This document shows, in pieces, positions 21,301 through 62,562 of a stretch of DNA of 64,000 bases; the first letter of the stretch is position 1, and each line of letters begins with the position of its first letter. The translations under genes were made by a program, and so were the position numbers. This DNA is from Ascidiella aspersa (Eukaryota): assembly GCA_963924565.1 (NCBI GenBank), contig OZ004607.1, positions 30,256,001-30,320,000 of the forward strand, written 5' to 3'. The notes below the pieces were generated by a model. That model was not told the origin of the DNA. It made no database searches and saw only the letters and a list, made by a program, of their open reading frames with translations.

Positions 21301-23075
21301 GATGCATTAGAGACTTGCAATAAAAAAAACTGTTTTAAAGCGTTAAGGCCAACAATTTAGCGAAAACTTGCAAATCACAGATCGAACAAACAATACTTTC
21401 TTTGCTTATTATTTTTTAAGCCTAGTTTGCGTCTCAGTTACCGCATTGCTGACTACGTAGGCCTGTCTAACTGTTCGGCGCTGGCAAAGTATATATATCA
21501 GCTATGAAAACGACGTAAATACTCTTATACTGTCAATCCTGATGGCAAATTTATACACTTTGCGCCTTTGTTTTGTTTGCGAACTGACTTTCACAATCGT
21601 CTTGTTCGCTCAAGTCCACGTTACGTCATCACATACAGCGCGAAAACAAAACAAGGCCTGTTTAGGCTTTTCTGCCGTTTGTAATCCCGATCGAATCTTT
21701 TCCCTTATTTAGCGATATCGCTATCTCCCATCCGACGAGCATAAAAACACGCACTATTAAAGCTGTGTGTGTACGACTTTTGTTCGCTCGTAACAGTGCC
21801 GTCATATGACGTCACAATACCGAAACAGAAGGACCGCTTGTGGCCGTTGTTGTGTGTGCACGGCTTAAGTCCACTCGCCAGCAATAATCGCATTTGCGCC
21901 ACAGACTTGCTTGTATATTACGCGCGCTGTGCGGTCGCGACTCTCCGAGGTGTCAACCCTTGCCATTCCCGCACGGCTCAGCCACCTTTAAGCGCATTTC
22001 GTCATTACCAGAACAAACCTAATAAGACTTGTCGCCGACCCGTCTCCCCCTATTTTTGCGGTATTAAAAAGTGAAAAAAAGTTCGCCTGGGAATATCGTC
22101 GCTTTTGCTTCGAGCTATAGACAATAACGTTCGTTAGGAGTTGTTCGGGTTATCTTTTATTAACGTATTTCATTAACCGGAACGTTGATAGCGTTTTTTA
22201 ATTAAACAAACGCTTTTTAACGTGGTTTAAGTTTCTAGCTGTTTTTACTCCAATACTCTTTAAAAGTTGGTCTGTAAGAGAATTTTTTCCCATAGCAGTT
22301 CAAAAACAAGGGTTTTAAATCCCCAATAAACATTTTGTAATTTTTTGTAACTAATTCCAAATGATTGGCTCAAATAAGTATTGTGAATTTTACATTTAAA
22401 TAAGTGGTTTAACACCAACGCATGTTCTCGTTTTCCTTTGTTAACGAAATCAATTTAAATAAAAAACAAATACCATACAAATCGAACTTAAACGCTTGGG
22501 ACCTTTTGACCGCGATTTTTTTAAGATCCTTAAGAAATAGGCCCGTCGCTTTAAAACAGGCTTTGCGCTGGCTAATTGGCATAAAATACCCTTTACGCCA
22601 TTTCTTCACACAAGTATCACGTTCTCGTTAAACACAGGCCAGACTTAAGCTCAAAATTCACCACATAAGCGAAATCGCATCCTTTCTCGCGAGAAAGCGA
22701 AAACAACGCAAAGCACGTAATAAGAATATCAAAGCCCATACAGAAGTAAACATAGTTAAAAATGAATAAAGAGTTATTCGAAACGTTCAAAATGATACCT
22801 ACTTCTGTATGGGCTTTGATATTCTTATTACGTCTTACTACAACCTCCAACCATTATGCTCCAAAACGTAAAACGCCTTTATTTTTGTTTTGCAGCCGGG
22901 CACAACACTATCTCAGGCCGAGGACGGAACCATCTACGTCACGCAGGAGGATGGCACCACGACGCCGCTTGATTCTCAGAAGGGGGTTCCCCTCGAAACG
23001 GTCGAGTCTCTGCTCTCGCTGGAAGGACAACAACAACAACAACAGCAACAACAGCAGCAGCAACAACAGGAGTGA
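389..23075 (+). CDS. ZNF839: ZNF839-like (DUF4764) protein, 3' portion; 5' exons lie outside the window
   Basis: Phase-consistent GT-AG exons 389-550, 1149-1346, 2739-2852, 16396-16489, 17201-17358, 18139-18236, 20811-21051, 22896-23075 (1245 nt, stop TGA). [35 protein letters not shown]|[23 protein letters not shown] resembles the recalled ZNF839 DUF4764 core ([23 protein letters not shown]...IYKEFEELHK). The C-terminal [12 protein letters not shown]|[11 protein letters not shown] resembles the recalled ZNF839 C-terminus ([22 protein letters not shown]). Confidence 0.8.
5395..13758 (-). CDS. Secreted fibulin-like protein (signal peptide, 7 Ca-binding EGF repeats, fibulin-type C-terminal domain), ~478 aa, nested in a ZNF839 intron
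   Basis: Exons 13758-13637 ([20 protein letters not shown] signal peptide), 12072-11936, 10926-10817, 9786-9615, 7425-7219, 6881-6779, 6275-6089, 5793-5395. All are GT-AG and in phase (1437 nt). EGF starts: DIDEC, DIDEC, DINEC, DEDEC, DVNEC, DDQEC, DKNEC, each with a CxNxxG/AS[YF]xC motif. The C-terminus [12 protein letters not shown] is typical of fibulins/hemicentin. Confidence 0.9.
17716..17996. mobile_element. Degenerate hAT-type MITE
   Basis: Termini cagtgtttctcaac ... ttgaaacactg; TSD poorly conserved. Confidence 0.5.
22757..22857 (+). repeat. ~100-bp dispersed repeat, copy 1 (SINE/LINE-tail-like)
   Basis: aaaatgaataaagagttattcgaaacgttcaaaatgatacctacttctgtatgggctttgatattcttattacgtcttactacaacctccaaccatta; near-identical copies at ~37242, ~58859 (rc) and ~61176. 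Confidence 0.85.
23028..23069 (+). repeat. CAA/CAG coding microsatellite (14 Gln) at the ZNF839 C-terminus
   Basis: caacaacaacaacaacagcaacaacagcagcagcaacaacag directly before GAG TGA. Confidence 0.9.
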
Positions 23076-24672
23076 ACTTAGTTCTAACTAAATTCCGGAT
23101 GAGATTGAGGCGCGTTTGCGACTGGAGGACCCAGCTGGATCCAAGTTCGTTTGTTCAGAAGGATCACTAACACTTGTGTAGCTCGAGGTTGAAATGAAGC
23201 TGCGTCCTACCACGAGCGCCGTCGTTTTGTATTAACATAGATCATCTATAACCAGCGTGTATCATCCCAAGTAGCGTGCCGTATATACGCGTCTATTTTT
23301 CCTTTTTTCGCCACTTGTTCTCTGACATAACAGTAGTAAAGCCATTTCAGACCGTAACCGTTACAGCAGCCGCGTCCTCGTCTCGGCCAATTTTAGGACC
23401 TATACCATATTGTGTGGCTCGTACGCGCGCGAGCTGTTTTACTACCGTCGTCGTTAAACTATAAAAGCAGTGCCAAATGGTCCCGATTGCTATCGAGCAC
23501 TTCCTCGATACGCAGGCTGCAGTGGTCGTTTTGCGGCCGTTTACGCGTGTCCTTGCTATGTCTGCTTTGCAGCGCCTTGCACTAGACCAAATCGTTGGAC
23601 AACCCGCCCAGAGGGCTACACCAGTGGTTCTTTGAACATTTTTGGTGTTATCACCCCAGAGAAGATCTTGAAGAGATTTTATTACTGTATTCGAATTTTG
23701 TTTAAATTACGATCTGCCATAATTCAAGAGATAGCAATATTTTAATAACGTAAATTGCATTAAAATGAACATTAAATACCTAAATACCGAAAAGGTCGTT
23801 CTACCTTTTGCTATTCAGAGTTCATAGATAGAATCTTATGTTTTAAATTGTCGAATTAAACCCATTACCTCCCACAGTTAAACCACTCCGCTCCACGAAA
23901 CCTAGCGATTACATTATTTGTCATATCAAGCATTACGCTGCAAGGCAGACATAAAACTAGTATTTGAATGTGTTTTTCGTTCGAACTGCCCAAAACACCG
24001 AAAGCGCCGCCCCCGTGATAAGCCGACATCCGTTTCGATTCTATTTCGTCTTCACAAGTTGTTTCGTCGTTTGTGTCTGTCCATCCACCGTTCATCTTTT
24101 TTTCGGTGTTTTGTGCGTTCAATAAAAGCTACATGGTGTACAGCAACCGGGCACCGCGGGGTCGTGTGAAATTCAGCCTCGTTGCGTTAATTTACTACAA
24201 GTCAATTCATCAGCGGTGTATGCCGAACAAAATCGAGGTCACTGAGCCGCGTCCCCAGGGTCCAATCAGCGAGATACGCATCGCCAAACCTGCCCTTTCA
24301 AGTTATTTTTTCCGCCGAAGCACATCGATCGGTTTGTCCGGTCATTAAACGGCATATGCCCGGCTGAATGGCATTACGACGTTTCGCACCATTGCCGAAA
24401 TTTGTCTTTGCTTTTTAAATTATGTACGCTTGGCTTCAGTCGCCGGGTTTGTCGCTTTAGTAAATATCGTCGACCCTCCTTTAAACGAAACTAAACGGTG
24501 GTAAAATAATGACATTTAGTATGACAAAGATTAAGACCGATAAAGCGTAAATCCTAATAACAAATAATCTAATTTAATTATTAACGTCCTTAACACAGTC
24601 AACTTATTAAACGACTTTTATAACAAAAGGTTACGATTGACTTTTTATTTGCGATTACAACATAATCTAGGT

Positions 24673-30198: not shown

Positions 30199-31461
30199 TA
30201 CTATAGTGACAGTAAAAATGCAATTTTTTGGGGTAAATAAACACACGTGTAGTCTACTAACCACTTTCCGGATTATTTTTATTTTTTATTCAGTCAAAAA
30301 ACTGACTTAAGATGTTTGGTAACACTGTTTTACAATAGACATAACCAACGTAGGCAGACAAACAAAAATGTCATACGGCCTAAAAAACTTCTGCACGAGT
30401 CGTGCCAAAAACGTACTACCGGTAATTCCTATTTAGAGTTCAGAATTTAGAATTTGTCTAAAAAACATATGTTTCAATATACAATTAAACCTCTGCAACC
30501 GTGGTTCTCAAACTTTTTCAACTTGTGGTACACTAAGAAAACAAAGGCACACTTTCCATTGTTGTAATGACTTGAGTCAATGGCTTGACTTGAGTGCATT
30601 TGAATTACTGTTTTAAAATTACTTTACTTTACTGGACTCAAGTCGTCATTGTGCCAAATCACTTTATTTTTCTCAGTTTTTACAATGAAAATAATTTGCT
30701 TCCTATATGTTGCGCTTTTCTTATTCTTTAGTGAAGACATTGATTATACACGGACAAGTTTTCCAATTTTCAAAGTTTAACCTAGTTGGCTCGAACTTGC
30801 TGGTCGATTGATAACTATATTAAGCTTTAAATATTGGCACACTCCATTTCGACTTATCTGCAGACACTTTTTTTTATGCGAGAATACAGGCCAAATTTCA
30901 TGAAAATGGATCCAACTAAAAGGTAAAATTATCGTACTTGGCTCAAATGACTCAGGCCAAGTCGAGATATTTAAAAACAGTATCTTCAGTACATTCGCTT
31001 AATGTATTCCACACATTGAATATCTATTAAAAATTACGCAATTTGTGAAACATTATTTTAGGTGGAAATCTGATTCTTGGTATGTCTTTGCTTAGTTTAG
31101 AAACTTTAGACTTTAGACATACAATAGGGTCCACAAAATACGGTCTCTATGTATCCTTAATAGTATAACAGTGTTGACAAAAGTTTCAAAAACTTGGAAA
31201 TTAATGGAAACTTGGCATTACTTCTCTCAGATGGCAGATTACTACACCCCTGTCTGTTATTACAATGGTGCAGGAAAACAGGATTTCGTTCAGTTCAGCC
31301 ACATTCTATTTTTACGATAGTCAGTGTGTTTATCAAAAAAAAAACATTAAATTACTATGTTTAATATCAGACTGAATTAGTGTTGTATATTTGTAAAATA
31401 AAGCATAAAAGAGAAAGTTTGCCCCCAACCATCCTATTTCTCCACAGCGCCACCACTCTCT

Positions 31462-31504
31462 ATCGCCAAGCAACCAGCTATTTTCACCTTTGCCCCTGAC
31501 GTAA
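31462..31504 (+). promoter_or_regulatory. Candidate RFX X-box-like site plus CRE-like site upstream of DYNLT1
   Basis: ATCGCCAAGCAAC (31462-31474) resembles the X-box GTNRCC(N0-3)RGYAAC; TGACGTAA at ~31498. Both lie 90-130 bp upstream of the ATG. Confidence 0.4.
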
Positions 31505-31594
31505 CTGAAATTTGGTCATCAAACAGATATTTTGACTTGAAATCAATTGAGGTTTTTTGGACAATTTTTGACCAACTTTAACGCCAGTTTAGCC

Positions 31595-31936
31595 ATGGAT
31601 GACTTTCAGGCCGGAGAAGAGACGACTTTCGTTGTGGACGACGTTAGCAACGTCATAAAGGAGTCGATCGAAAACACGATCGGGGGAAACGCCTACCAGC
31701 ACAACAAAGTCAACCAGTGGACCTCAAATGTGGTGGAATTGTGCCTGAACCAGCTCACCAAGCTGAATCGGCCCTTCAAGTACATTGTGACCGCGGTTAT
31801 CATGCAAAAGAACGGTGCCGGACTGCACACGGCCAGCTCTTGCTATTGGGACAATTCGACAGACGGAAGCTGCACCCTGAGATGGGAAAACAAGACCATG
31901 TACTGTATTGTTAGCGTGTTCGGCTTGGCTATTTAG
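31595..31936 (+). CDS. DYNLT1: Dynein light chain Tctex-type 1, 113 aa, intronless CDS
   Basis: gccATGg start. [48 protein letters not shown]...[52 protein letters not shown] closely matches recalled DYNLT1. Confidence 0.97.
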
Positions 31937-32265
31937 ATACGCAGAACGAGTGTTACGTTTTTCCACATTTCGCACATTCACTTGTATTTTTACCGCTTTC
32001 AAAATTAAACTTTTAATGACACTAAGCCTCTATTTTGCAGTTAATGAGATATATGCGCTGTAAAGACACCTACATTTATGGTTTAAAGATTTTCAGGCGA
32101 ATAAATTACTAGAATTTTATTTCTTTTCACAGAAATGTAGTATTTGTGTGCATGTTTATTTTGTTTCGTAAGTTTCCTGTTAAAAATATTAGTGTATACT
32201 GTTATTTTTATTAAACTGTATTATCACCAAATTAGGTTGAAAGTAAGCCTAGGTACATTTGCTCA

Positions 32266-35200
32266 ATGGATGACTGTGACTTGGAAAAACTAACTGCTTC
32301 GCCAGCAAAGCTTTCTCCAAAGTTTAACAGAAATACAACTGAATATGAAGCCACAGTGGCAAGTAGTGTGAAAAAAGTTAAAGTGGATTGTATGACCAGT
32401 GATAGTGGAGCATCTTACCAAGTGTTTGTGAGTTGTTTTGTGTGTTCAAATACATATTGTTTTTGTTTTTTGAAATGTCTTTGGTTTATTTTTAAAATGT
32501 TTAAATAATAAATAATTTGCTCAAGAGTCGGTGCAGGGTTTTTACAAAGTCATTGAGTCTTTAAAAGCTTTTGAATTGATTTGTGTATTGATTTTAATCA
32601 AAAGTTCTATGAAAACATGTTTTTCCAAAAAAGCATTTCAATAGTCTTTGAATTTATCTTATATGAAGCTTTTTTATAATACTTGACTTACCCCTACCCA
32701 AACGCTAACCCAAATAATGTTAATATAAGCCCCGGGACGATTACATTTTAGGTCTTCAAAGAGCTACACATTTTTTTAAAATGTCTTTCAATTATTTTCA
32801 TAAAACTGTGTGGCAACCCTGCAGTGGAAATCATAAAATTTAGCCATATTTGTCACATGCATCAGATGTTTTGTGCTTTAAATAATTGTAGTTGCGTATA
32901 ACCAAACAAAATGTCATAAAACAACCTCAAGTAAAAAGGAATATTTTCAAAAAAATGCTCACAACATATTACCTCTAGTTAGATATATAAGAGAAACTAA
33001 AATTCACAGACAAGTCTTTCAAATACCTTAAAATTTGAAAAAATATATATCAGGTTTAAACATCACTCAAGTTGTAATTATGGGTAAACGTTTTTGGAAA
33101 AAATATTTTTGGAAGGTTTTTATGCTAGGGAGCAGGTGGGGAGAAAAGCATACCCTTAACAGAAGGTGCTGTTACCGAAATCAAAATAGAAGTATCATCA
33201 GAAGATGGCACGACCAAGCAATACTTCATAAGGGTCAAACGCTTGTCAGCCTCAGATGCCACACTCAAGCAATTGTCAATATCCAATGGAAAATTGGAAC
33301 CTGCATTTACAATGGACTGCTATGAGTACACATGTAAGAAATAACAAAACCACATATCAATAGGTCTCTTGTTAAAGTCCACAATTGTAAATCAATCTGA
33401 TGTTAACAGTGGGCATAATACGCTAAATCAATTATGATTTCTGCAGAAAACAAACAATGTAAACTTCCTAAAGTTAGTTATTTTATATTTGTTTTTTTTA
33501 GAAAATTGTTTCACCTACTAAGTTTATGAATGTTTTCTGCGAAACATTAGCTTTATCCCTTTAAAAAACATCTACAAAGTTTGCATTTCTACAATAATAG
33601 GTAATTTACTGATAAAAAGCACTTGTCAAACAACATTCCACTAACTATGGTGCTTTTAAGCTGTCCTTTATATTGAAGAGCTTTTAGTAATATTCTAATT
33701 GTACATTTTTTCCCATTTTCATGGCACAAACATGGTTAATTTATGTTGTCCTGTCTGTATTTTAGCAACTGTGCCATGTCAAATTACCGAAATCACAGTC
33801 ACAGCAGTTGCACCAGACAAGAAGTGTGTTGTCGTGGTTGCTAATGCAAGTCCAGAGTCAGCGGTTCCTTTGCTGATGGGTGAAACTGTTCTCACTGTTG
33901 CTGTTACCTCAGTTGACGGTAAAAACAGAAAGGTATAGAAAACAAAAAACATACATGATTTAAGTGACCATGTATTTTTTAATGACATGTTGGCTGTTGC
34001 AAACCTTGAATCTTGAGGAAATTTATGCGTTTTACTATTACTGGAGGATAAAGTAAGCTCATGTAGATTTGGATTATTTTGTTCCAACGGCCCATGGCAT
34101 AAATAATTTAGGAAAACAATCTTTCTGGAAACAATGACTTTAAAGTAGCTATAAAATAACTGGAGTCTGAGATATTGAAAACTAGTCTCGCACTTTATAA
34201 CTAAAGTAATTTCCATAATCCAACTCCAGCCAAATTTACCAATGGCTTTGAGTATAGAGTCTGGGTCTGACTCTACTGAAAATTTTCCATTATATGCTAT
34301 CCAACCTTTTATTGGTTTCCAATTTTCTACAAGCATATGTCAGACTATATTTTCATTGAGTTGTGAATCCCTGTTCAACATATTACTTTACGTTGTTTAA
34401 GTTCTGTTGAAAAACATTATTTTAAAATGTTTTGTTCACATGAGGGCTCTGTTTATTTTTAAACCTATAACTACAATTCTTATTGATACAGTTTTAAACT
34501 TGATTGTTTTAGTAATTTAGCCTCTTAGGTTATAAAAAAATATTTTTGTGATTACAATTTCAAACATTATTCTTAATTGATGGTTGCTGCAATGTCAAGG
34601 AAAATATTCTTACAATAAATTCCATTAGAATTGCAATAGTATTTGAGTTATGCTGTTTTTTATCATTGAAAAGAGTTATGTGCCAATTTTAATCACAATA
34701 CAAACATATCACGAATAATAATTAACATAGCAATTTTGTGTCATGATTGTAGGACTACACAGTTGTGGTAAGTCGCAAACAACTGCCATGGTATGTGGTG
34801 CTGAAAGATGAGGGCAAAGCACAGTCCTGGGAATGTCCGATGACTTTAAGTCCGTTCTACAATCCTGTTGCTATTGCTGGATCAGACCCCAGAGTGGTGA
34901 TGTCACAACCTTGTATTGACATGTTGACTAGAAGGTATGCAGTGAGCAAATATTTTTAAAGTAGCCTTTGTATATGTATATTTTTACATGACAAAGTATT
35001 TTATGTTTTTTGATTGTTTTGCATCACAAGAATCTTCATAGCATAAACAATTACGTTTGTTGATAACTTTGGAATATCAAAAGTTCGATTTAAACTTTAA
35101 TTGTTGTAAAACATCAAGGTATAGCTATCTTGCTCAACTGCAGTTGTGTGAAGCTCTGTTGAAACAAAAACTAAAAAGTTTTGTATCTATAATATTATAT

Positions 35201-38200
35201 ATATATATATACAGTACATGTAGATTTTAATGAAATTTAAGTTTGGTGAAAAAGCAAAATATGTGCCTCATTTACGTTTACGTGTATGTAGATCTAAGGT
35301 GAATCCAATGAATGAAGCTGCTCTTGACAAGGATTGGAAAGTAATTGACACCAAATTAGACCAAGAATTATCAGACACTCTTGCCTTGTCGGTTTACAAC
35401 TATAAAGGTAAGAATTTTCACAAAAAAATAAATCCTGCAATAAGAAACTATTGATTTGAATGTTATTTAAGTACTGGCTTAACATTGTGGAATTTTACTT
35501 TACAGAGTTTTTTTTTGTTATTTCAACTAATTATTTTACTTGTTGCCTATCAAATGAGGGTCATCTTTCTACCAATCTACAATTTTTCTACAAATTAAGG
35601 GGTCTCTGAAGAGCTTCCGTTGAAAAACATGGCAAACCGCATCACTTCCTGTGAGCAAAAGCCAAGTGAGGAGGTCGACACCAAAAAAGTAACCGAAAGT
35701 GCCTGGTACAAGGCCGACTTCGAAGGCTCCAGTACAACAACCAAAACTATTTCACACAAAGTAGAGGTATGTTAAGAATATGGTTGTAGCAGGGTACCTA
35801 TTTCAAATAGTTTAACCTGTATTAATATGTATACTAAAATTAGCCAGATTGGTAGTGTTGAACTGACTTAATTAGTAAATATAGTGTTATTTAAGCTAAT
35901 TGTTAAATGTAATATAATTATTAACTGCTACTTGTTTCGGTTTTTGCTGTTCTGCTCAAAATCCTGCTCTACAGAAGATTGGCCTTAAGATATTTTGCAA
36001 ATGTTTTGCCTGGGAATGGCTTTATAGTAAACACCTTTTGATAAAAGAAAAACGTTTATTTGAACTACATTTTCCAAAAATGAGGAAACTGTATATTTGG
36101 TATATAACTTTAAATTCAAACTGTGAAAAGCACTTATACAGGTTTAAGATTTTAGATAAAATGCGATGTAACAAAAACAAAAATCGGTAAAGAGCTATAG
36201 TCGTTATTGCACAACAGTAGATAATTTCTACATCAATTTATTACAAGCAGGTGCGCAACTGGGAAAAGCGTTTACAGCACATGGCAAGCGACACCAACCC
36301 TGATACGTTGGTTAAAGAAGCGGACAAAAAACAAAAGTCCTATCGACAGAAACTGCCACTCAAACCAGGTATAAACCAATGTGCAAAAAAAAACACATGC
36401 GCCATGCATCGTTAGTAAAAATTCAAGGTTGTGTTTCCAAGATCAGCAAAAGTTGTAAAACAAAATCCAAATTATTTGTATTTCCACGATAAATATACAT
36501 ATACAAAATTCTTTGTGTCTTTTGAGTTGCTACTTTTATTTTTCAGTTGTTTTTAGCTTGTAAACAATTACCCCAAACGGAGTAATTCAATAATTTTAGC
36601 GCGTTGTTTGGGAATGATATTAGATGGTAATGTGGTATCCCAAATCGTTTCAATTTTTATTGTTTATTTGAATAATAGATCAATCTAGAGTGTTTTTTTC
36701 CTAATTGATTACATATCATGCATTACACTGCACTTGAAAAAAAAGTGTTAAACAAAATATTGTTTTAGATTATTATCAGGGCTGGTGACGCTTTTTAAAG
36801 GTTAACAACCCCTGTTATATTTAAACATAGACCATATACATCACGCCATATTTTTCAACGTCAGCTAACAACTTGTTTACGTTCAAAATCCAGGAGAGGC
36901 TGCGAGGTTTCCGGAAGGGGAAGCCCCGTCCGACGACTTGCAGCAGTCGTGCGTATGTCTGGCCGCCGCCCTCAAGGTCAAAAGCAATGACGCCAAGCTG
37001 CACCTGCGCCTGGGACACGCGCTCGAAGAGAACCACTACCTGAAAGAAGTGTTCGGACTGCACAAGCACGTAGGTTGTTTGCTCGTGTCGTGTGTAGTCA
37101 CAACTACCAAACTGTTTAAACGAGTGATTGTGATTTGGCTACTGTTTGAATTGCAACGGCAAAGGCAGATCGCAGCGTGTCAATATGGCTGTTGATATGC
37201 TCTTCAAGTCGTTTTGTGGAAAGCGATAGCGATGGTTTGTTATGTTGAAAATGAATAAAGAGTTATTCCAAACGTTCAAAATCATAGCTACTTCTGTATG
37301 GGCTTTGATATTCTTATTACGTCTTACTACAACCTCCAACCATTAGGCTCCAATTGTTTGTTTGATGTTTAACTATTAAACATTCATACAACATATGCAC
37401 TTCGCAGTTTAGCGAAATGACAAAGCCAAAAATATGGTAAAAATTAGAACAACCTTTGGGTTGACTTTTTGCCTTTAAACATTGTAGATGAGTTGGAGCC
37501 AATTTAAAAAGTCCACATTTAATAAATATGACAAGCACATATTTTCTTTACCTGTCGTTCAAATGCTAAAACCAGTTAAGTCTCTAAAATGTGAATTTGT
37601 GGGTAAATAATAGACTAAGCGTCGCAATCATCTGCCACTGTCGGTCATTGAACTGACATTCCGATCTAAGGTTGCAACTTGCAATTCAAACAAATGGCAA
37701 TCAAAACAGTAAAAATGAATTTGACAAGTGTACAAACACCATGAAACTCTATTATTATTTAACATATGTGAGGAAACGATCAACCTTTACGGCAAGTGTT
37801 GCAGTGGTTCGAACAGAGTTACGGGCCATGATCTATTCGTGACACAGCGCCTGAACGCAGTATGCAATTTTGATCGAACGCGATCACAATTTTAGAGCAG
37901 GGGTTTTTAAACGGGGTTCCATTCACCCCTTGGTGATCCGGCAACTAGTGTTAGGGGGTCCATGAAGGCCAAATTGAAATATTAGTGTGAAGTACACAAT
38001 GAGAAAGTACACAAAGAAGTACACAATGATGGGTTCCGTTATCGTTGCCCAACATGGCTTCAGAAGGACTTGACCAACGAATACACAATCATTATGTATA
38101 TGTATGTTTCAGTTGTATTAAAGGACTAATCAATTTTTCAAATATATTTTAACTCTATTTCTCTTTTACATTTTTGGACTGAAATCAGCAAATTTATAAA

Positions 38201-41200
38201 GTATATTTGTATTGTGACGTCTATTTATGACGTCCTTTTTTATAAATGTTCTTGCCTGCAGTGGTCCACGCGAAGCCAAAAAAAATTTTAGTGCTCCGTA
38301 GTAAAAAAAGTTTAAGAAACCCTGTTTTATAGTATATAACTCATTACCTCTACAGGAAGAAGCGGAAGAGTTGGACGCTGGAACGGACAAAAGCGCCAAG
38401 GAAAGCTCTAAGCTGGAGGAGTGCCAGGCCATCTGCAAGCTTCACGGGGTCGCCGCAACCGCGCCCATCGCCCTGCAGCTGAAGGCCATCGACCAGGAGT
38501 ACAGGAGCTTGCGCGAAAGCGGACAGTCGGGCAGGGCTGACCACGTGCAAGGACTCTACGCGTGGAGGTCAAAGCAAGCGCTCAAGGTCGTGCTGGGCGC
38601 GAGCATTGGTGGTCGCTCTTCCGCTTAATGCGCACTGCCTGTTATTTTTTCTTTTTGTGGCGACGACGCAATTATGAAAAGTTAATCAACGGCTTAGCTT
38701 TGACCAACCTTTTTTTTACGATGGTGTTCTCGTATGCCAAATTAACAAAATAGACGTGTGACAAAAAGTTCAAATTTAATAGTGTACTGGCCTTATGTTT
38801 TTAATACGTTTTTAGTTTTGTCATTTTCTAAAAAACGATTTTTATTTTTTACTCCATAAATTCTTAGCCTCGTATTCGCTTTTATTGGTATGGTCAACGT
38901 TTTCAGTATAAAACCTTGGCACGTGCGTATTTCCAAGTCCAAAATAAAATGTAGTAAACGGGACTTAAAAAGTAATTTTGGGCGATCTCTTAAAATTAGT
39001 TAGCGGTCACCAAGCCAAACCTTAATAAAAAACTGCTCGTAGCTACAACCACTTACCAAAGCTATTCAACCACAACCCTTTGCGAATTGTGTACCCAGGG
39101 CGACAAATCGACTGCCTCTCACGCCGACGAGAGCTCGCCGCTTACCCAGGCCTACCTAAAGTACATGGACGCGCTGGCTTGTGACCCGAACAACTACCTG
39201 TGCAACCTGCACGTCGCCAGGCTGCTCGTCGAGCGAGAGGAATACGCAGAGGCAGTTGTGAGACTGCAACAGGCGGTCGGCCTTAAACCGGTCAGCGTCG
39301 AAGCAAGGTGAGCGATTAAAATGAAGAATCTGTTTGGTTGGTGTTGATTTACGTTTTGGTTCATTGGTTGCCAGTTTGGTTGTTAAGGTTTTAATTTTTT
39401 GAAATTGGTTAAAACGATTTGAGGAACCAAATCCACAGAAGGAACCTCTTGTGGATTCTGATTTTTACATTTTTTAAGCGAGTGCCTAATTTGCAGTCTT
39501 GTAAACAAGTCATTTTGAAATGACTAATGTCCCAGTCAAGTCTTTTCAACAAAATAGCAAGTCAAGTCCCAGTCCAAGTCACCAGTTGCCCAAGACAAGT
39601 CATTATTAGAGAAAGTCATCTCCAAGTCAAACCACTAATATAATAGTAAAACGGTTAACTCGCCCGATTATTTATTATTAGAAATAATTCAACAACAAAA
39701 ATAGCAAAAAACAATATGTAGTAATTTAATCGTTTTACATGCAAAATTAAGATAAATAGCTCCACTTTATAATAAAATGTTAAATGTAAACAGTTTATTT
39801 CAACCCAAGTCAATTGACTAATCAGTGCTTCTAAAACTTTTTTAGTTTTGTTCACCCCTAGCATCCATCTCCAGATTTCGTTCACCCTTGTCTCTTGATA
39901 TGATAAAACTACCTCGTCTATATATAACAGCACAAAATGACTTGAGTTGTTTCGCAAGCTATCACCTATTTCTCTCGGTTCACCCTTATTCATCCCTTTT
40001 TGTTAGTTCAACCCTGAAACAATTTTAATCACCCTGGGGTGAACCATTCACCTGATTAAGAAACATTGGACTAAATTATTGAAGTCAATCAAGTCAAGTA
40101 ATTTTACCAATATGACTAAAGTCATGCAAGTTAATTAACTAAAACGATTAAAGTCATGTCAAGTAATTTAAAAACAGTGCACTTAAGTCTAGTCATTGAC
40201 TTAAGTCATTACAACACTGCTAATTTGAGAAGCAGTGGTCGCTATTACCTACGGTCATGCGTTCAATTCTTAGCGAGCACCATTTTTGATTTCTCTGGCC
40301 AAGAAGTAATTCACTAAGATATTACGAAAATGCCTTGTTTTATCAAATTTATGCTGTTGTTAGATTTCTACTCGGCTTGGCTCTCTTGCAAGCGAAGGAC
40401 GAGGCCCGACAGAAAGAAGCCGTTGAGTTTCTCCACGAAGGTCTTGACCATTACATGTTGCGAAGACAGAAGGACGCAGAAGCGGAAGGTAAAGGGCGTT
40501 TTAGAAGCAAAATTGATCATTTTATATCCCAAAGCGAACGCTTCTATGATATCATGAGAAAATCCTGATTAAATCGACTAATTTCGGTAAGGTTTTCCGG
40601 AAGCATCGTGTGTACTTCTATGTTATGTCACGCTTGGAAACCTTATCTTACGTAAAAATATTTATTTTTTGTTTTTACTATATATATTTTTTGTAGATAT
40701 TTTTACAGAGGAGCCTTTTAAATTTATCTATACTGTGTTGCTTCGAGCAATGTTTTAACAATAATATTTTTCATTTTAAAGCTATTGTTTCATAAAAGTG
40801 AATCACATTGTATATGTTTTTAGGTTGTCAAAACCAACCAAAGTCAACCTTAAAATGTCCATGCACACGCTAGATTGTAGCAAATGCAAGTCGTGTAAAA
40901 CCTCCATGTCACTTCAGGTGTCAATCCTTCCTCGGCGACCGATCTACACTGCGAAGACTACTGGCGCCTTTCAAACATGCAGTTTCTCAACGGCCTCATG
41001 CTGTTAGCCAGCCACTTAAGGAAAACACCCGTGCCCGGAATAAGGACAGCAAAGGAGATTTACCACGGGTAAGCTACTTTTCTCATTCTCGAATGCTTAG
41101 CTGTGTTTTTTTATAAAAGCAGTATTTTGCTTACAGTATTTGTCTACACTCGTCAATGGCTTTGTGCTCAATGTACCACCGAGGGAGCATTTTTCAAGAG

Positions 41201-44200
41201 GTAAACGTTAGCTTCGGGGCGTTTTGGTTAAAGAATCAGCAATGCGTAGCTTAAATCCCGTGCAGAAGCGTGTATCGTGAAATGTACACTGTTAGAATAA
41301 AAGTTTAGTATTTTTCAAACTAAAATGTACTTTGATGTGATACTTTAATATAATAGTAAATAAAGTAATTGCACTGTTTAAACTCTCATTAAATCTTCCG
41401 TGATGTAAAATAGTCTTTGCTGTTGAAGTTTTTAATCAGTTTTTGTAAATCATATCTGAAATGCACCAACTGTCGAACCTATGCATTATTAGTTAACGAT
41501 GTGTGTTAATTTACCAACGTCCGTTTCCCTTGTCTTAAACAGCTTGAGTGGACGCTACTGAAGTCGCACTTCGCCCTGCTGGAGATTCTCATGTCTTCAC
41601 CAGGGGCGGGCAAGGGCGCTTGGGTGGCGCAACGTTGTCGCTACCTTTCCGCCATGCTACGATCCTGCACCATACCCCGGGATGATAGGTTGCTTGAAAT
41701 ACAAGAAAAGGTGGGATATTGGCTTTTATAGTTCGATATCTACTGATGAATTGTGGTGATTCAAGAGGTTGGGCAGCATCTAATAATCGCAACCCAAAAT
41801 GTTTGAGTAATTACTTGTAAAACTGTCAGAAAAAACTTTGAAAGAAATCGTAGTAGAATTTTTATTTAACTATTTTGGTATTTGTTGGTTGTTTTACTAT
41901 TGTGTGATACTGCGATTTTACGATCTTAAGTCGCTACCAACTTACTTGTTTAAAGCATTTCGCAACACTACTTCCCCACTACCAAGCAGGGACCCGTTCA
42001 TATTTTTACTATATATTAAAGAAAACTGTTAAAATTTGTCAGAAATGTATAGTATAGCCATATGCAAAAATGGCGCAAGGAACTGTTCTCCTAATGTAAA
42101 TCACCCGAGAATCTAAAAATTAGACCATTTTTTAGCGTAAACGGTGTAAGTTTTTAACCTGGCTCAAAACCAACCCCAGCTTTCGCACTGCTCAGGTTTC
42201 TCAGCACTTGGTCAGTGTGAACCCGTGCAACAGCGAGTCACTCTACCTCCTCGGCGTTGCCCAGCTACAGATCTACGACAACGAGACCGCTTCAGGTGCT
42301 GGTGACGAGCGTCCGCTGCAGGAAGCTATACAGAGCTTCCAGGCAAGCGTCGACCTAGAGGGAAAACCCGCCGCCGGGGAAGTCCCTATAGCAGGTTAGA
42401 GAGTTCCTGACTCCGATGACAAATGTCTTCAAATAGAAAAAACCTTTCATGGAAATCGTTGCACAAGTAATGAGTTGTGAGTCGCTGAGCCCGTTTTTGT
42501 GTATCCGGGTAGCTGGGTTTAAAGAATTGTAGTAGACGGCTCAGCAAAGATAGGTCCGGCCCTGATGTGTCTCGATATAAAAAAACGGTCAAGGTTCCGT
42601 GGTTTCAGTACTGAAATAGCTCAAACTTTTTATTGAACAAAAACAATTGTAGTTGTTTTTTCGGACCTTTAGCAGATCAATGCAGTGATTACTTTATTTG
42701 TAGCTCTTTTTAGTTTCTTAGTGTTTAAAGTTGCAGTGCAGAACGGTTGCGGTGCAGAATTTATTTCAATCCACTTAGAAAATATTATACCGTCACTTTA
42801 CCGATCCCTCATAAAACAGAGGTTCCTATTTCTACAATATTTTTGTGTTGAGCTCAGCGAACAAATACCGTCAAAAAGTGGATATATGCATGGTTTGTTC
42901 AGCGACTTGCATTCACTCGCCTTATTAAAATAAATTCAACTTTTTTTTCCATTTCAAAAACAAAACCCTTATCAATCTTAAACAGGTCAAAAGTGGTACG
43001 TCGAGAAACTGGAAAGAGAAAAACCCAAGCAAGCAGCGGCCCCTGCCCAGGCCCCAGCTGCGGGAAAGTCCCCAGCCAGGGGTAGGGGCGCCCCCGCGGC
43101 CAGGGCCCGCGGCAGGGGGGTTGCCCCGGCCCGAGGCGCCCCGGCCAAAGCCCCACCGGCCGCGAGGGGTGCGGCCAGGGGTGCCCCGAGGGGACGGGGT
43201 GCGTCATCACGTGGAGGAACTGCGGCCCCTGCTGCTGACTCGAAATGCAGTAAGGAGGCCGCGCCTGCACAACCAGCGCAATCACAGGTGAAATACAACT
43301 TTTAAGTTCAAAGCGCGTTTTAGTTATATTGAATTTAAATAAATTACGTAATATTTTGAAAGTTTGTTTTTGAGTTTCAATCATTCCCTTGGTATAATTT
43401 TCCGTGATTAGTTTTTTATTAAGTTTTCAAGAATGCAATCCAAGCATTTCTACCTGACTCGTTTTAAAGCGAATTAACGGCCAACGATGTTTACAAACAT
43501 GTTCAACGCTATTTAAAAAACCCGTTGCTTTTTACTTTGTGTGTCTTACCTAGATGCAAGTATATAACCGAAAAAAAGGTAAACTGAAAGAAATCAAAAT
43601 TCAATCTGATAACTACCATTGCAGGTATAACGCTGCAGCATCGCTGCATTTTCTTACAGCAATGTGTGTACAAAAAATCCAACGATGTAAAACTATGTAA
43701 CAGGACCCAAATCTGATTTTTATCGCCATTGCATTCAAGGTCCCGGCAGCGGCGAAGAAAGCAGATATCAAACCAGCGCCGATAAACAGGAGCACTTACC
43801 ACGCCAGACTTGGACTTGCGAGGGCGCTGTCAAGGACCAAGGACAGAAAGGAAGAATCCCGGGCACGCTACGAAGAAGTGATGAAGATGGCACCAGAGGT
43901 AGGTTTCTGGTGTTTTCTTATGGTTTTGTTGTTGCCGGTATGGCGTTATTGGTCGTAATTTTATAGTTAATAAACATTTTTTGCGATATTGGTTGTTGCT
44001 CTTTACATCTTGGTCGATTTTTTTGTTATCACAGGATCTTCTGGTGTATTGGTGCACTTTGTGGTGCTTTGTTGGTTACGAGTTGTTTACCGATGGTTTT
44101 TTTGTGGTTGGTCGTTTTTTTACGGCGGTTATAATTGTATTTTCGTGGCCCTGGTAAATTCAAATGGTGTTGTTGGCTGATTTGGTTCACGTTGGTGGTG

Positions 44201-45886
44201 TTTTCAAATATCCAGGTGCACGACGCGTACATCGAGTTGGCGGACCAACTGGTGAAGAGCGACCCTCTGGCTGCAGTGGATATTTACTGCAGGTTGGCCT
44301 TTTTTGTTGCAATACATTTGCTACGCGCATAATGCACGACTAATTTAGCAGCTTGTAGTAACTAACAATAGAGAAACTTTTAGTGCAAATCATGAAAATT
44401 AACTGCCTGAGAAAACTCCACAAAACGGCCAACTTTATGGGGTAATACATAACTCCACCCAAGCTTTTGCAAGATGATTAATTAATTCTTTGGTGATTAT
44501 AAGACCACTGTAAATATCACCATGCTCTTATTTAGATAAGATTTAGCGAAATATTCGCCACATTAAGGCTTGGCGTAGCCTGAACAACTGTGCGACACCG
44601 TTTTTTCACCTTAGTCTCACGATTGATATATAAAAATCCAGCCTATTCACCACTACATTTTGGATCCTCTGACCTGCTTTTCAATTTGCATGATAACCGG
44701 GCTCAAACAGCGTACGTCACTGATCTCAAACTCGTCCTTTAAACACTATAACCTCGCGTTGTTTCCGCCGTTATCCTTTTGCCTTCGACTTTAAAACATA
44801 ATTTTTTTATTTCCCAGGTTTCCGAGCAGCAGCGGGGACGACGCTGAGGAGTCGTTCGACGACGCTTACCTCAGCGGAGAGATCGTGAGCATTCTGATGA
44901 AGCACGAGCAACTGGACGACCCGCGCCTGGTCGAGCACATGGTCAAGTGGGGAAGGGTCATGGGAATCGGTGAGTCAAACGTTTTTGTGTTTGCGCGTGT
45001 GGATTTCAAAAATAATGGTGCCCAAAAGCGGGGTTGCGGACTCGGGTAAAAATAACCCGAAGCCAACTCCCGAGTCTGATTTCGACCTAAAAAATTAACC
45101 TGGGTCCGACTCCGGGTCCGACTCTACAGCCTGCATTTCGCCCGATTACGTAACTGAAATAAGGTGGATATTAAGCAATCCACTCACAGGGGAGTCATAT
45201 AAGTCATCCACCCACAATACGTGGTTCTCAAATACTCTACCACATGCTATTTCATCTTTACAATTCTCATCAATTTCGAAATTCGGTACTGCACATGAGC
45301 ACGTCGAACTCAGGAATCGGTTGTTTTACGTAGTCTTACTCGACTGCCGAGTCGAAATCTTATCCATCTTTTAGATTTTGTCCATCATTTTAGCCCACCA
45401 TTTTAAACCTCGATGGGTTTTTTATTTGAAGTATAGTAAGTCTATGATTGAACGTAACTAAGCTGCTTTAAGCTAAAAAGAACTATCAAATACATGGTTT
45501 ATGTGTCACATGGTTTATGTCTCTGTTTAAATTGGATCTGTTTTGTATGTTTGACCTTGATATTTAATTTTGGAATTGACTTGATAAATGTATTAGTTCT
45601 CAAAAATATCGGGTAACGCTTTAGGATACCTTTAGTAGTTTTATCGTTCTTACCGTACAAGCGTTTTTCTATAAAGTCAATCATTGTGCTTTCCTTGAGT
45701 CTGCTTTGTACGTCATTACAACACCCCGTCACGATTTTGTGTTCAGGGGTCCTTGAGAAGTACATGGGCATTCTGGACGCCAAGTTCAAGACCAACATGC
45801 TAAAGAGCATATACGCCGGCGTTCACCAAAAGGACTTGGACGACCCTGATCTCCTGGCCTTCTTTAAGTTCAAATGCTGGATTTAA
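32266..45886 (+). CDS. Uncharacterised ~1089-aa protein: 2x cadherin-like beta-sandwich, U-box/RING-like segment, degenerate TRAF-type finger, TPR repeats, RG/Ala/Pro-rich linker
   Basis: 20 in-phase GT-AG exons: 32266-32427, 33129-33333, 33766-33932, 34753-34934, 35292-35407, 35600-35766, 36251-36368, 36894-37069, 38356-38586, 39099-39307, 40364-40488, 40918-41068, 41137-41200, 41543-41710, 42196-42394, 42986-43287, 43740-43898, 44216-44292, 44818-44969, 45747-45886 (3270 nt). Cadherin-like motifs: LSPKFNRNTTEYEATV, IEVSSEDGTTKQYFIRVKR, VAVTSVDGKNRKDYTVVVSR. U-box-like: WECPMTLSPFYNPV. TPR-like: AKLHLRLGHALEE, EYAEAVVRLQQAVGLKPVSVEARFLLGLALL, SESLYLLGVAQL. Confidence 0.88.
37242..37346 (+). 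repeat. ~100-bp dispersed repeat, copy 2
   Basis: atgttgaaaatgaataaagagttattccaaacgttcaaaatc...caacctccaaccatta. Confidence 0.85.
37898..38324. mobile_element. hAT-type MITE in an intron
   Basis: Termini caggggtttttaaac / tttaagaaaccctg; flanks ttttagag / ttttatag (7/8 TSD match). Confidence 0.65.
39500..40219. repeat. aagtc-rich DNA-transposon-like element; related fragment (rc) at ~30561-30600
   Basis: Many caagtc/aagtca motifs. The terminus tgcacttaagtctagtcattgacttaagtcattacaacactg is an approximate reverse complement of gttgtaatgacttgagtcaatggcttgacttgagtgca at 30561. Confidence 0.5.
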
Positions 45887-48466
45887 AATCTTTTTACCTG
45901 TCATGCTGGGGAGCTGACAAATTGCCAGAACATTCTTTCAAGCGCTGTTGAATAATTTTTACTGTTTTAGTTTAGCCACTGTGATTTTAGTACTGCTGTG
46001 ATTCGCTGTAGTTGTACTGTGATTCGTTAAAAATGCTTTTAGCATGTACTAGATCAGTTCTAGATGCCAAAGTTCGCCTTTACCAATTCCATTTTCTACG
46101 TAGTGCCGCTTTTCATTTGCCCTTACGCTTACCTATTATCACTTTCACTGTCATCGTTACTGTTGTTGGTATTAAAATCTAAATACAGCTAACTTGTGTA
46201 GTTTTAGCTGGTTACGTGATTAAAGTGGTTGCGACTCCCTAAAATAATGCTTTTGTGATTTGCGAAGATTCTATCACATTTTGTGTGGTAGGCCTAGGTG
46301 GTTCAAAAAATTAAAACACAACTCCTTGCTTTTAATTTAATAAAGGCTTCTGGGTGGACAATTTTTATAGGCTTTGTACCTTGGCAAATGCAACAGGAGA
46401 ACATTTATCCTGTTTTCCGTGTTGTTTAAAAAAGTTATGGTATGACAGCCTTTTGGAGACCTTTGCCCTGGTAATGATATTGTGAATTTTGGGTTTTCGC
46501 CATTAGGCTCAAACGCTAAAATTGCGTTTAAAGAGATATTCTTATTCCGATTTACAGCAGCGAGCATGTCAGCTTTTTCTTAGTTTTTTCTCGAGGTCAG
46601 TTCCTATTTATACATATGCTACCCCGATATATAAGTACATACATTAACTTAACTAAAACAAATAAAGGTTACCTTTCTTGAAAATGCCCTAGTCCTACCC
46701 CTCAAATGCACAGAGATCCATCTACCAGTTATGCTGTAGAGTTGCTACTGGAAGCCCGCAATCTTCCTAAGTGCTTCCCGGTTTAATAAACGGAATGACT
46801 GTTTTTTCTACATGACAACGTCGCCAATTAAGATCGCCCACCAATAGAATTTCTTGACTTGCTTCGCTTGATTGGTAGGCTGCTCTCTTGCGGTAAAAGC
46901 GAGGGACGCAAAGCACGTGCAATCTAAGTGGCGCGAAATGACCAAGTGTAGTGTTACAAGATTTACTAGATTTTAACTTGATTTTTGGTACGCCATGTTA
47001 CACGCAAATATAATAAAACTAAGGGTTTCTTGTTAAAGCTTTCTTGTATAAGGTAAAAATGTTTTATATCTCAGTGATGTAATTTTCCGAAATAAAGACA
47101 ATTATCTTATCCAATGGTTCTCAACCTTTTAGGTTTCGTGGCCACCTTTAACCGTCGTGGCCCCCTCCTGCTTAGAAAAAATACCTAGTATTGTTTTTAA
47201 CGATTTTTCACTTGTTTTACTTCTTCACGTTAGTGACCAAAACAGCCACTAAACGTCCAACGAATCAATGCACTTATACTTAAAAAAAGAACTTGAAAAA
47301 TCTGTTATTTTACTTTATTTAACTTAGTTACTAGTCATTGCAAAGCTTATTCTTGAACTCGGCCAAGGTATTTTTGATTCGGCTTTGTTTTATACTAAGT
47401 CAAGCGAATGTCATTACATACCTCGATTTGTGGATCTGGTTTTGTGCACGCAAGATACAAAATCCAGCTTCGAGAAGATAGTTATAGTTGCGAATTAAAC
47501 GCACATCACGACGGCCTTCTTGCTGAGTAGTGAGTGCAAATCTCGGGTAGACACAAAAAACTTGAGCCATCACTTTTGTTATCATGTGGCAGCTTTATTG
47601 CAGTCGTACAAGTTTGTTTTATAACGCCTAACGTTTTCACGTCGATCGACGGTTTGTAGTTTTCCGTGATAGGCTATATACCTACACACACTCCTAGCAA
47701 TAATTCTAGAAAGTTTAACTGGCGAGTAGGGATCTGCAAAGTAGAATCCAAAGGTAACTATTCTATTTTACAATTATAGGTTTTGAATCTAGAGTGTTAA
47801 ATCCTAGGCCTAATAAGTTTTGAAATAACTTTTTAACTTTAATTTTTTGGGGATTGACAAAACAGCAATTAGTTGCTAATCTAATTGCTATCATATGAAT
47901 ACTGTTATCAACTGTCTGAATAACTTCCGCTTAAAAAAGTTGTTTAAATTAGAGTGCATAAGTACACAAAAAACTAGACAAGAACGTAAAACATAGAAAC
48001 ACCAGGTTGTAACCAAACCTTATTTTGCCCATATGGTAAGTGCAATCAAAACAATGCTGAGTTTTAGTTATACTTCTTTACAAATGAGATGTGTTAATTA
48101 GACAGTTAAATAATATATAAGCTATAGTTAAATAATATGCCGCAAAGAATACCAAGTAATTTCTATCATTCATGTGTTATTATTACTTGACAATTATAGG
48201 CTGTACATAACCTCATTGGCCTAAAGTTGAAATTGAGTAACCACGTAGCAAACTTCGCGCGTTTCACGATGGAATGTATAGCTATATATATTAAATGAAA
48301 AAAACAACATATTTATGAATAACAAACAGTTGAAACAATTAAAAAATCAAATGTCAAATTAGCGCGATAAAAAAATCCACACGTTGTATCAGTAAAATGT
48401 GAATTGAAAAATTGAGGACAATACTCTATGATGATGAATCGGTGCCAAAACATTTGTTGAGGGTTT

Positions 48467-49175
48467 TTAGCAGATGCAGCAGTTTTTATTATGCTTGAAT
48501 TCGCCCTGACTGACAGGTTGACGTTGGTTGAGAATGCGCATGACCTCACTCTCGAACGACAAAGCTGCAACTCTGGCGAAAAATTCCTTGACGTTCTGGC
48601 CAGTTTTGGCCGACACCCCCCAGAACTCCGCATTCATCGAATTTGCAACCTTTATGGCTTCGCACTCGATCTCTTTAAAAGCCAGTGGAGCCAAAAGATC
48701 TATTTTTGTCCCGACCAGAAAAATCATCGGCGAGCTGCCGCTGTTTGTTTCCAGTGCAACCTCTAACCATTTCTTAGCGTTAGCGAGGCTCTGGATCTCC
48801 GAGACGTCGAAAACAACCGCTAGAACTTGCACTCCACGGCAGTACGGGGTGACGGTACACTGGAACCCCTCATGGCCAGACGTGTCAAACATGTGAAGCG
48901 TAAAAGGCTGATTCAGGATCTCAAACTTTTCCATCAAAAAATCTACGCCGATCGTTGCTTTCAAATTTTGTTGGAACGACTTTTGGCAAAAAACGGTAAA
49001 GCAGACAGCTCTTTCCGACTGCATTTTCGCCGATAAGAACCATTTTGCATATTTTTAGGCTTACCTCAGTAGACCGGTCGGCCAGACATGATTGAAGGAC
49101 CCTCGGGTCGAACTTAAGATGTTCGTCGATTCGCGCATCCTTCGTAAAACATTGCGGAAAATTTGTGATGGTTCA
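48467..49175 (-). pseudogene. RAB34: Intronless Rab34/Rab36-family copy with a +1 frameshift and an upstream stop (probable retro-pseudogene; intact gene if the frameshift is an assembly error)
   Basis: Frame A reads TITNFPQCFTKDARIDEHLKFDPRVLQSCLADRSTEVSLKICKMVLIGENAVGKSCLLYRF, similar to the recalled RAB34 N-terminus (LPQCLRKEA..DFHPRV..C..). An A6 run at 48988-48993 shifts into frame B: FCQKSFQQNLKATIGVDFLMEKFEIL...DTSGHE...GTKIDL...SAKTG...CCIC*. An in-frame TGA lies at 49175-49173. Confidence 0.8.
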
Positions 49176-62463: not shown

Positions 62464-62562
62464 CTGAAACAACATAATAATCAATATATTACGCCTGAAA
62501 CAACATAATAAAAAACAACATAATCATCAATATATTACGCCTGAAACAACATAATAATCATT
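62460..62562. repeat. Local triplication of the ASH1L micro-exon acceptor region
   Basis: acgcctgaaacaacataataa at 62460, 62491 and 62537. Confidence 0.85.

What the first reader, a model, noticed from the sequence alone, without database searches (positions are those of the whole stretch)
31462..32268. Putative polycistronic (operon-like) unit: DYNLT1 plus the cadherin-like/U-box/TPR gene
Only 329 bp separate the DYNLT1 stop (31936) from the next ATG (32266) on the same strand. The spacer is AT-rich and 3'UTR-like, with no evident promoter. A polyA signal ATTAAA (32210-32215) is followed ~20 nt later by AG acceptors (32234-35, 32251-52) just before the ATG. This matches the known ascidian operon design, in which the upstream 3' end abuts an SL trans-splice acceptor. 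An X-box-like motif upstream of DYNLT1 suggests RFX/ciliary co-regulation (inference).
Basis: partly seen in the sequence, partly recalled or inferred. Interest (0 to 1): 0.7.

Follow-up and report, generated by a model that had tools for sequence, protein, structure and literature searches.

The report
Sea-squirt two-gene operon, DYNLT1 first
In a sea squirt, an intron-free dynein light-chain gene sits 329 bases in front of a 20-exon gene of unknown function with RNA covering the gap, so the two are likely read as one transcript and split by spliced-leader trans-splicing, an ordinary arrangement in these animals.

Summary
The layout is real. An intronless DYNLT1 (31595-31936) lies 329 bp before a 20-exon cadherin-like/TPR gene (ATG 32266) in a phlebobranch ascidian (DYNLT1 99% identical to Phallusia). 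Stranded RNA starts near 31500-31536 and never drops to zero across the spacer (203, 49, 26, 11, 6, then 15). One spliced contig runs from DYNLT1 into the downstream exons. The genome has a tandem array of the Ciona-type 16-nt spliced leader (654 matches, control 24). The same order, with intronless DYNLT1 first and a similar X-box-like motif, recurs in one divergent ascidian-type locus (spacer 952 bp). This fits Ciona-type operons, 60% of which begin with a single-exon gene. The defining event, a leader joined at the acceptor, was not seen, and depth (6-15 reads) was too low to expect it. The acceptor position is therefore open; 32236 is a weak best guess. The U-box was not confirmed. Verdict: likely a new member of a known kind, about 0.7; low interest.

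The parts
31462..31474 (+). X-box-like motif ATCGCCAAGCAAC, about 30-60 nt before the first RNA coverage
   Evidence: One mismatch to a recalled RFX consensus; 10 such hits in the window; similar 14-mer ends at L012:9856. RFX domains exist in the genome (3 matches). Binding untested.
31500..31594 (+). Likely transcription start zone and 5' UTR of the unit
   Evidence: X4 depth 0 before 31404, 0.05 at 31404-31504, 30 at 31536 (6 molecules end there), 44-55 at 31548-62. Not a cap-mapping method.
31595..31936 (+). DYNLT1 (Tctex-1 dynein light chain), single exon, the only close copy in the genome
   Evidence: (3 matches: self, then 37% and 34% partial); X4 depth 117-124
31937..32265 (+). 329-bp AT-rich spacer: DYNLT1 3' UTR running into the 5' UTR of gene 2, covered by RNA throughout
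   Evidence: Depth 203 (31909-32009), 49 (32099), 26 (32167), 15 (32180), 11 (32210), 6 (32244), 8 (32249); X3 record 17 is colinear 31573-32427
32234..32235 (+). Best candidate trans-splice acceptor and cistron boundary (TTAG|G); predicted, not observed
   Evidence: Top score (4.2) of 17 spacer AGs with a small matrix from 19 acceptors; next to the depth minimum; leaves no upstream ATG. Alternatives: AG at 32251-52, 32191-92, 32171-72, 32131-32.
32266..45887 (+). Gene 2: 20 coding exons, 1089 aa, two cadherin-like beta-sandwich domains then TPR repeats; orthologue of Ciona LOC104266112
   Evidence: Model; introns 1-2 are RNA joints and the exon 3-4 join is a loose end; other exons inferred from GT/AG and an open frame; Pfam; orthologues of 1079-1098 aa in Ciona and Clavelina
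45888..46731 (+). Inferred 3' UTR of gene 2

Best explanation
DYNLT1 and the cadherin-like/TPR gene likely form a Ciona-type two-gene operon: one promoter before DYNLT1 likely makes a precursor across both genes, and the host's 16-nt spliced leader is predicted to be joined at an AG in the last 100 bases of the spacer to free the second mRNA. Shown: the layout, one-strand RNA with no gap, the SL gene array, and the same order in a second ascidian-type locus. Inferred: most transcripts end in the DYNLT1 3' UTR as abundant DYNLT1 mRNA (depth about 120-200), and a minority go on to give gene-2 mRNA at roughly a tenth of that (depth 7-15). Trans-splicing at 32173 or later (best guess 32236) would remove all six upstream ATGs. 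The X-box-like motif would put both genes under RFX control (untested).
For: Host is an ascidian: DYNLT1 is 99% identical to Phallusia, 96-97% to Ciona, 94% to Styela, 83-88% to four non-tunicates. SL leader plus GT donor: 654 matches at up to 1 mismatch against 24 for the reversed control, in a 584-bp tandem array on C3; the repeat unit has the full Ciona 16-mer. RNA covers the spacer without a gap and X3 record 17 joins DYNLT1, spacer and spliced exons 1-3, so the RNA-level gap is under the 100-nt Ciona criterion. In Ciona, 12 of 12 unbiased downstream genes of such pairs were trans-spliced, and 60% of operons start with a single-exon gene against 15% single-exon genes outside operons. L010/L012 (99.8% alike, counted as one organism) have intronless DYNLT1 952 bp before exon 1, with 42% third-position identity and an unalignable spacer. 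Ciona's two genes both map to a contig of 10,285,203 bp. Weak: exon 1 is already CpG-poor (o/e 0.17), the L012 spacer is too (0.40), and 3 of 7 spacer variants are CpG transitions, as expected inside a gene body.
Against: No SL-bearing or poly(A) loose end and no pile-up is listed at 32236 or 32253 (about 6% of X4 read, 29 loose-end rows not shown). The variants at 32244 and 32249 are not SL letters. Depth falls from 203 to 49 by 32099, so many DYNLT1 molecules may end well before the proposed AG. Depth doubles from 6-8 to 13-15 inside exon 1, which a second promoter would also give. Colinear RNA across the AGs also fits overlapping independent transcripts or unresolved read-through. The window spacer's own CpG o/e is 1.10, not depleted. 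L013, with an ascidian-type DYNLT1, has no gene-2 match in its 1095 downstream bases. No Ciona operon record for the pair was found.
Confidence: 0.7

Rival explanations
1. Two independent genes with overlapping ends: gene 2 has its own promoter inside the DYNLT1 3' UTR or CDS, with or without trans-splicing of a short outron.
For: Depth rises from 6-8 to 13-15 in exon 1 and the genes differ about tenfold in depth. DYNLT1 has its own AATAAA at 32100. Window spacer CpG o/e is 1.10. Ciona has putative promoters that overlap trans-splice acceptors (passages of PMC4691747).
Against: Close order kept with a non-conserved, differently sized spacer in L012, with the only shared non-coding motif upstream of DYNLT1. 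Single-exon first gene. In Ciona such close pairs were 12 of 12 trans-spliced. Exon 1 is CpG-poor from its first base.
Confidence: 0.17
2. One promoter but no trans-splicing: alternative polyadenylation gives a short DYNLT1 mRNA and a long, fully spliced two-ORF mRNA from which gene 2 is translated by re-initiation or internal entry.
For: X3 record 17 (4808 nt, depth 112.6) joins DYNLT1 to spliced exons and its length fits the whole gene. Minimum spacer depth (6-8) is similar to exon 2 depth (7-9). No leader was seen.
Against: A contig across two genes does not show one molecule. Six upstream ATGs lie between the ORFs. The host has the SL array. Unresolved dicistronic cDNAs also occur at Ciona operons that are resolved by SL.
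Confidence: 0.1
3. Chance closeness with background read-through and no functional link.
Against: Same order in L010/L012 at near-saturated silent sites. The nearest upstream coding exon seen in the window ends near 23076, 8.5 kb before DYNLT1, so the region is not compact.
Confidence: 0.03

Closest known systems
SL-resolved operons of Ciona intestinalis (Satou 2006, PMC1488885: sections 11, 13, 14, 15, 23 and parts 1-2 of supplement 1 read; Satou 2008, PMC2760879: passages and section 10 read)
   Same: Two same-strand genes with no RNA-free gap, single-exon first gene, same 16-nt leader in the genome, AT-rich YAG candidates like the published boundaries (15 of 16 YAG by my count).
   Different: Leader addition and poly(A) at the same AG are not shown here. 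An AATAAA at 32100 and an early fall in depth suggest extra upstream 3' ends; Ciona boundaries mostly lack AATAAA.
Oikopleura and C. elegans operons (as described in PMC1488885 section 13 and passages of PMC7986045)
   Same: Polycistronic precursor resolved by trans-splicing.
   Different: These keep intercistronic DNA (23-30 nt and about 100 nt) and C. elegans uses a dedicated SL2. This host carries the Ciona-type leader; a second leader was not searched for.
RFX/X-box ciliary promoters (passages of PMC2873420)
   Same: X-box-like motif 121-133 nt before the ATG of a dynein light chain, within the 100-250 bp range given for C. elegans.
   Different: One mismatch to a recalled consensus, no binding or reporter data, and DYNLT1 also serves cytoplasmic dynein (recalled).

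Membership tests
Ciona-type SL-resolved operon | Host is a tunicate with SL RNA genes | tested here: met
Ciona-type SL-resolved operon | Same-strand pair with under 100 nt between the transcribed regions | tested here: met
   No zero-depth bin between 31505 and 32514 in X4, lowest point value 6; colinear X3 contig. Mature mRNA ends not mapped.
Ciona-type SL-resolved operon | [quoted passage not shown] | tested here: inconclusive
   None listed at depth 6-15; under one read expected against a listing threshold of 3 (own arithmetic)
Ciona-type SL-resolved operon | Upstream poly(A) added at the G of the acceptor AG (no intercistronic DNA) | tested here: inconclusive
   No poly(A) loose ends listed; the only 3' pile-up is 7 molecules at 32179, which is not an AG
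Ciona-type SL-resolved operon | One promoter, none for the downstream gene | not testable with these tools
   Needs cap mapping; CpG pattern is mixed
Ciona-type SL-resolved operon | Unresolved dicistronic transcript as a single molecule | tested here: inconclusive
   X3 record 17 is a contig, not a molecule; X4 reads are 151 nt
RFX target promoter | X-box near the start site, conserved | tested here: inconclusive
   Motif in both promoters; alignment of the two 250-bp promoters beats controls at P 0.02-0.04; 10 equal hits in the window
RFX target promoter | RFX binding or dependence | not testable with these tools
   RFX domains present in the genome; no binding data
   No Pfam U-box hit in exon 4 or three orthologues; only zf-Nse E 0.02; no fold was predicted

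The most novel reading that the evidence does not exclude
An operon kept across ascidians puts an uncharacterised cadherin-like/TPR protein under the X-box promoter of a dynein light chain, marking it as an unknown ciliary or dynein-linked protein; and the long, fully spliced two-ORF RNA is a stable message translated without leader addition, unlike textbook Ciona operons.
Probability: 0.1. Interest if true: 0.55.

Novelty: new member of a known kind. Interest (0 to 1): 0.22.

Why it matters
About a fifth of Ciona genes lie in such operons (1,310 candidates), so one more is ordinary. The modest value is twofold. It is a case of an operon-like pair kept between divergent ascidians while the spacer changed from 329 to 952 bp. 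It also gives a guilt-by-association lead that the unstudied LOC104266112-family protein is co-expressed with a dynein light chain. Searches for the pair or gene in print found nothing, but the Ciona operon lists use identifiers that I could not map, so it may already be catalogued.

Tried and rejected
No RNA holder was listed by the run index; the RNA evidence comes from laying X4 and X3. A deeper, finer read-level view of 31420-32460 was not obtained, so the leader junction stays open. Checked whether the variants at 32244 and 32249 are leader letters: they are not. The pile-ups at 32028, 32098 and 32179 end in GC-richer hexamers and may be priming bias, so I did not take them as poly(A) sites (inference). 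A matrix from 19 cis-acceptors is small and noisy (true sites score 1.0-10.8 in sample; the pyrimidine-rich AG at 32131-32 scores -4.5), so its ranking is only a hint. Searched for processed copies of the junction that might carry the leader: only the locus itself. Rfam gave no match on the SL array. No shared upstream genes between the window and L012 by tblastx. Of 80 loci kept from 226 confirmed, 2 have gene-2 exons; most are too short to test; five non-ascidian-type loci with more than 5 kb downstream (L020, L038, L047, L068, L072) have none, among 29 whose lengths I printed. The first protein search listed annelids and molluscs on top, which suggested a non-ascidian host; cluster members and alignment reversed that. 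Ciona operon status: the KH gene file was too large to read, supplement searches for Tctex/dynein gave 0 with one file unsearched in each, PMC2860165 is not held, and the SLOPPR operon file was listed but not opened for lack of a KH identifier. These unseen files may settle whether the pair is already annotated. Earlier scan notes: none near or by sequence; two on Polinton genes by words, not used. No structure or complex was predicted.

Full report
Observation. DYNLT1 runs 31595-31936 as one exon of 113 aa (Pfam Tctex-1) and is the only close copy in the genome. The spacer is 329 bp with GC 0.30. ATTAAA 32210, AG 32234-35, AG 32251-52 and ATG 32266 are all present. The spacer also holds two more poly(A) hexamers, 17 AGs and six short-frame ATGs. 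In 5000 dinucleotide shuffles the hexamer-then-AG pattern appears in 7.7% and an AG in the last 40 nt in 90%. These signals alone prove little.

Gene 2. It has 20 coding exons (32266-45887) and 1089 aa. Introns 1 and 2 are RNA joints and the exon 3-4 join shows as a loose end; the rest is inferred from GT/AG and an open frame. Pfam finds two cadherin-like domains and TPRs but no U-box. A search with exon 1 gave 5 hits among 27 candidates, among them Ciona LOC104266112 (1079 aa), Clavelina and Phallusia. PDB sequence matches listed are to the TPR part only.

Host. DYNLT1 is 99% identical to Phallusia, 96-97% to Ciona, 94% to Styela and 83-88% to four non-tunicates, so the host is a phlebobranch ascidian. 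The Ciona leader (table) plus donor GT matches 654 times at up to one mismatch, against 24 for the reversed control, with a tandem array of period 584 bp on contig C3. The unit has the full 16-mer, a donor, a short hairpin and a T run. The machinery for leader trans-splicing is therefore encoded.

RNA (623 reads laid from about 6% of stranded run X4). Depth is zero upstream, rises at about 31500-31536, and is 117-124 over the DYNLT1 CDS and 203 just after the stop. It then falls to 49 (32099), 26 (32167), 15 (32180), 11 (32210), 6 (32244) and 8 (32249), and is 13-15 in exon 1 and 7-9 in exon 2. All of this is on one strand. Reads cover 31548-31562 at depth 44-55, so DYNLT1 itself is mostly not trans-spliced at the AGs next to its ATG. 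X3, whose kind is not on record but which is spliced and lacks the flanks, has one 4808-nt contig colinear from 31573 to 32427 and then spliced through exons 2 and 3; its length fits the whole gene plus 3' UTR. X1 and X2 span the region as unspliced contigs, so the junction is assembled correctly.

What the RNA does not show. No leader or poly(A) loose end is listed at any spacer AG, with 29 rows hidden. This blank has little power: at the DYNLT1 5' end 6 molecules pile up on a plateau of about 120 (5%), and the same share of 8-14 is under one read, below the threshold of 3 (own arithmetic). The variants at 32244 and 32249 are not leader letters. Continuous coverage fits an operon precursor, a stable two-ORF message, or overlapping independent transcripts.

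Conservation. A metagenome scan kept 80 of 226 confirmed loci. Two (L010, L012; 99.8% alike, one organism) have an intronless ascidian-type DYNLT1 followed 952 bp later by exons 1-3 of gene 2. Third-position identity to the window is 42% and the spacers do not align. L012 has a pyrimidine-rich TTAG 59 nt before its ATG. L011 ends just after the CDS. L013 has 1095 downstream bases and no gene-2 match, which is slightly against or uninformative. In Ciona both proteins are recorded on a contig of the same length, 10,285,203 bp, which shows linkage but not adjacency.

Promoter. ATCGCCAAGCAAC (31462-74) matches a recalled X-box consensus with one mismatch; 10 such hits occur in the window. L012 has a like motif ending 145 nt before its ATG, and the two 250-bp promoters align better than controls at P 0.02-0.04. 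RFX domains are in the genome. This is suggestive only. CpG o/e is 0.97 in DYNLT1, 1.10 in the spacer and 0.17-0.65 from exon 1 to intron 6; in L012 it is 0.94 in the promoter, 0.40 in the spacer and 0.33 in gene 2. The pattern is mixed, leaning slightly against a promoter at gene 2.

Mechanism. Shown: layout, gap-free one-strand RNA, leader genes, conserved order in one other organism. Inferred: one promoter, a precursor across both genes, most molecules ending as DYNLT1 mRNA, and a minority trans-spliced near the end of the spacer. An acceptor at 32173 or later leaves no upstream ATG. I give 0.7 to the operon, 0.17 to a separate overlapping promoter, 0.1 to an unresolved two-ORF message and 0.03 to chance.

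Comparison. In Ciona, operon genes abut directly, poly(A) goes on the G of the acceptor AG, and 16 of 18 boundaries lack AATAAA (PMC1488885). All 12 unbiased downstream genes were trans-spliced. There are 1,310 candidate operons and 60% start with a single-exon gene (PMC2760879). This locus works like those and meets the tests that could be run; the two defining junction tests are inconclusive. I could not tell whether Ciona's pair is already in the operon lists; unseen supplements may hold it.

Verdict. Real, likely an ordinary ascidian operon, a new member of a known kind. Interest 0.22.

Noticed in passing
G000:C3 about 5,218,000-5,450,000 and beyond (L009, L090): Large tandem array of SL RNA genes, period 584 bp, in two orientations and broken by inserts of about 8 kb; the leader equals Ciona's 16-mer, while the part after the donor differs. 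Rfam has no match.
   Followed up: partly
window 48470-49150, minus strand: Ras-family small GTPase ORF (Pfam Ras E 4e-28), convergent with gene 2 and apparently in one or two exons.
   Followed up: partly
window about 54200-64000, minus strand: Multi-exon gene with a BAH domain (E 3e-9) and a Cys/His-rich exon near 58200-58390; looks like a chromatin protein.
   Followed up: partly
window 22764, 37253, 58936, 61186: Four exact copies of a 16-mer (0 expected), part of a longer dispersed repeat, probably a small mobile element.
   Followed up: partly
window about 20820-23076, plus strand: Last exons of an upstream gene with polyglutamine runs, 8.5 kb before DYNLT1; no Pfam hit for the last exon.
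   Followed up: no
window 32500-33750 (introns 1-2 of gene 2): Low RNA depth (1-3) and short X3 contigs inside the introns, likely unspliced precursor; 32550-32820 also matches a dispersed repeat.
   Followed up: no
L020, L023, L024, L029, L030: Longer contigs with an uninterrupted DYNLT1 frame of non-ascidian type (84-85% identity); intron-free DYNLT1 may not be limited to ascidians.
   Followed up: no
window 42986-43287: Exon 16 of gene 2 encodes an Ala/Pro/Arg/Gly-rich low-complexity stretch with RG repeats, also present in the Ciona and Clavelina orthologues.
   Followed up: no
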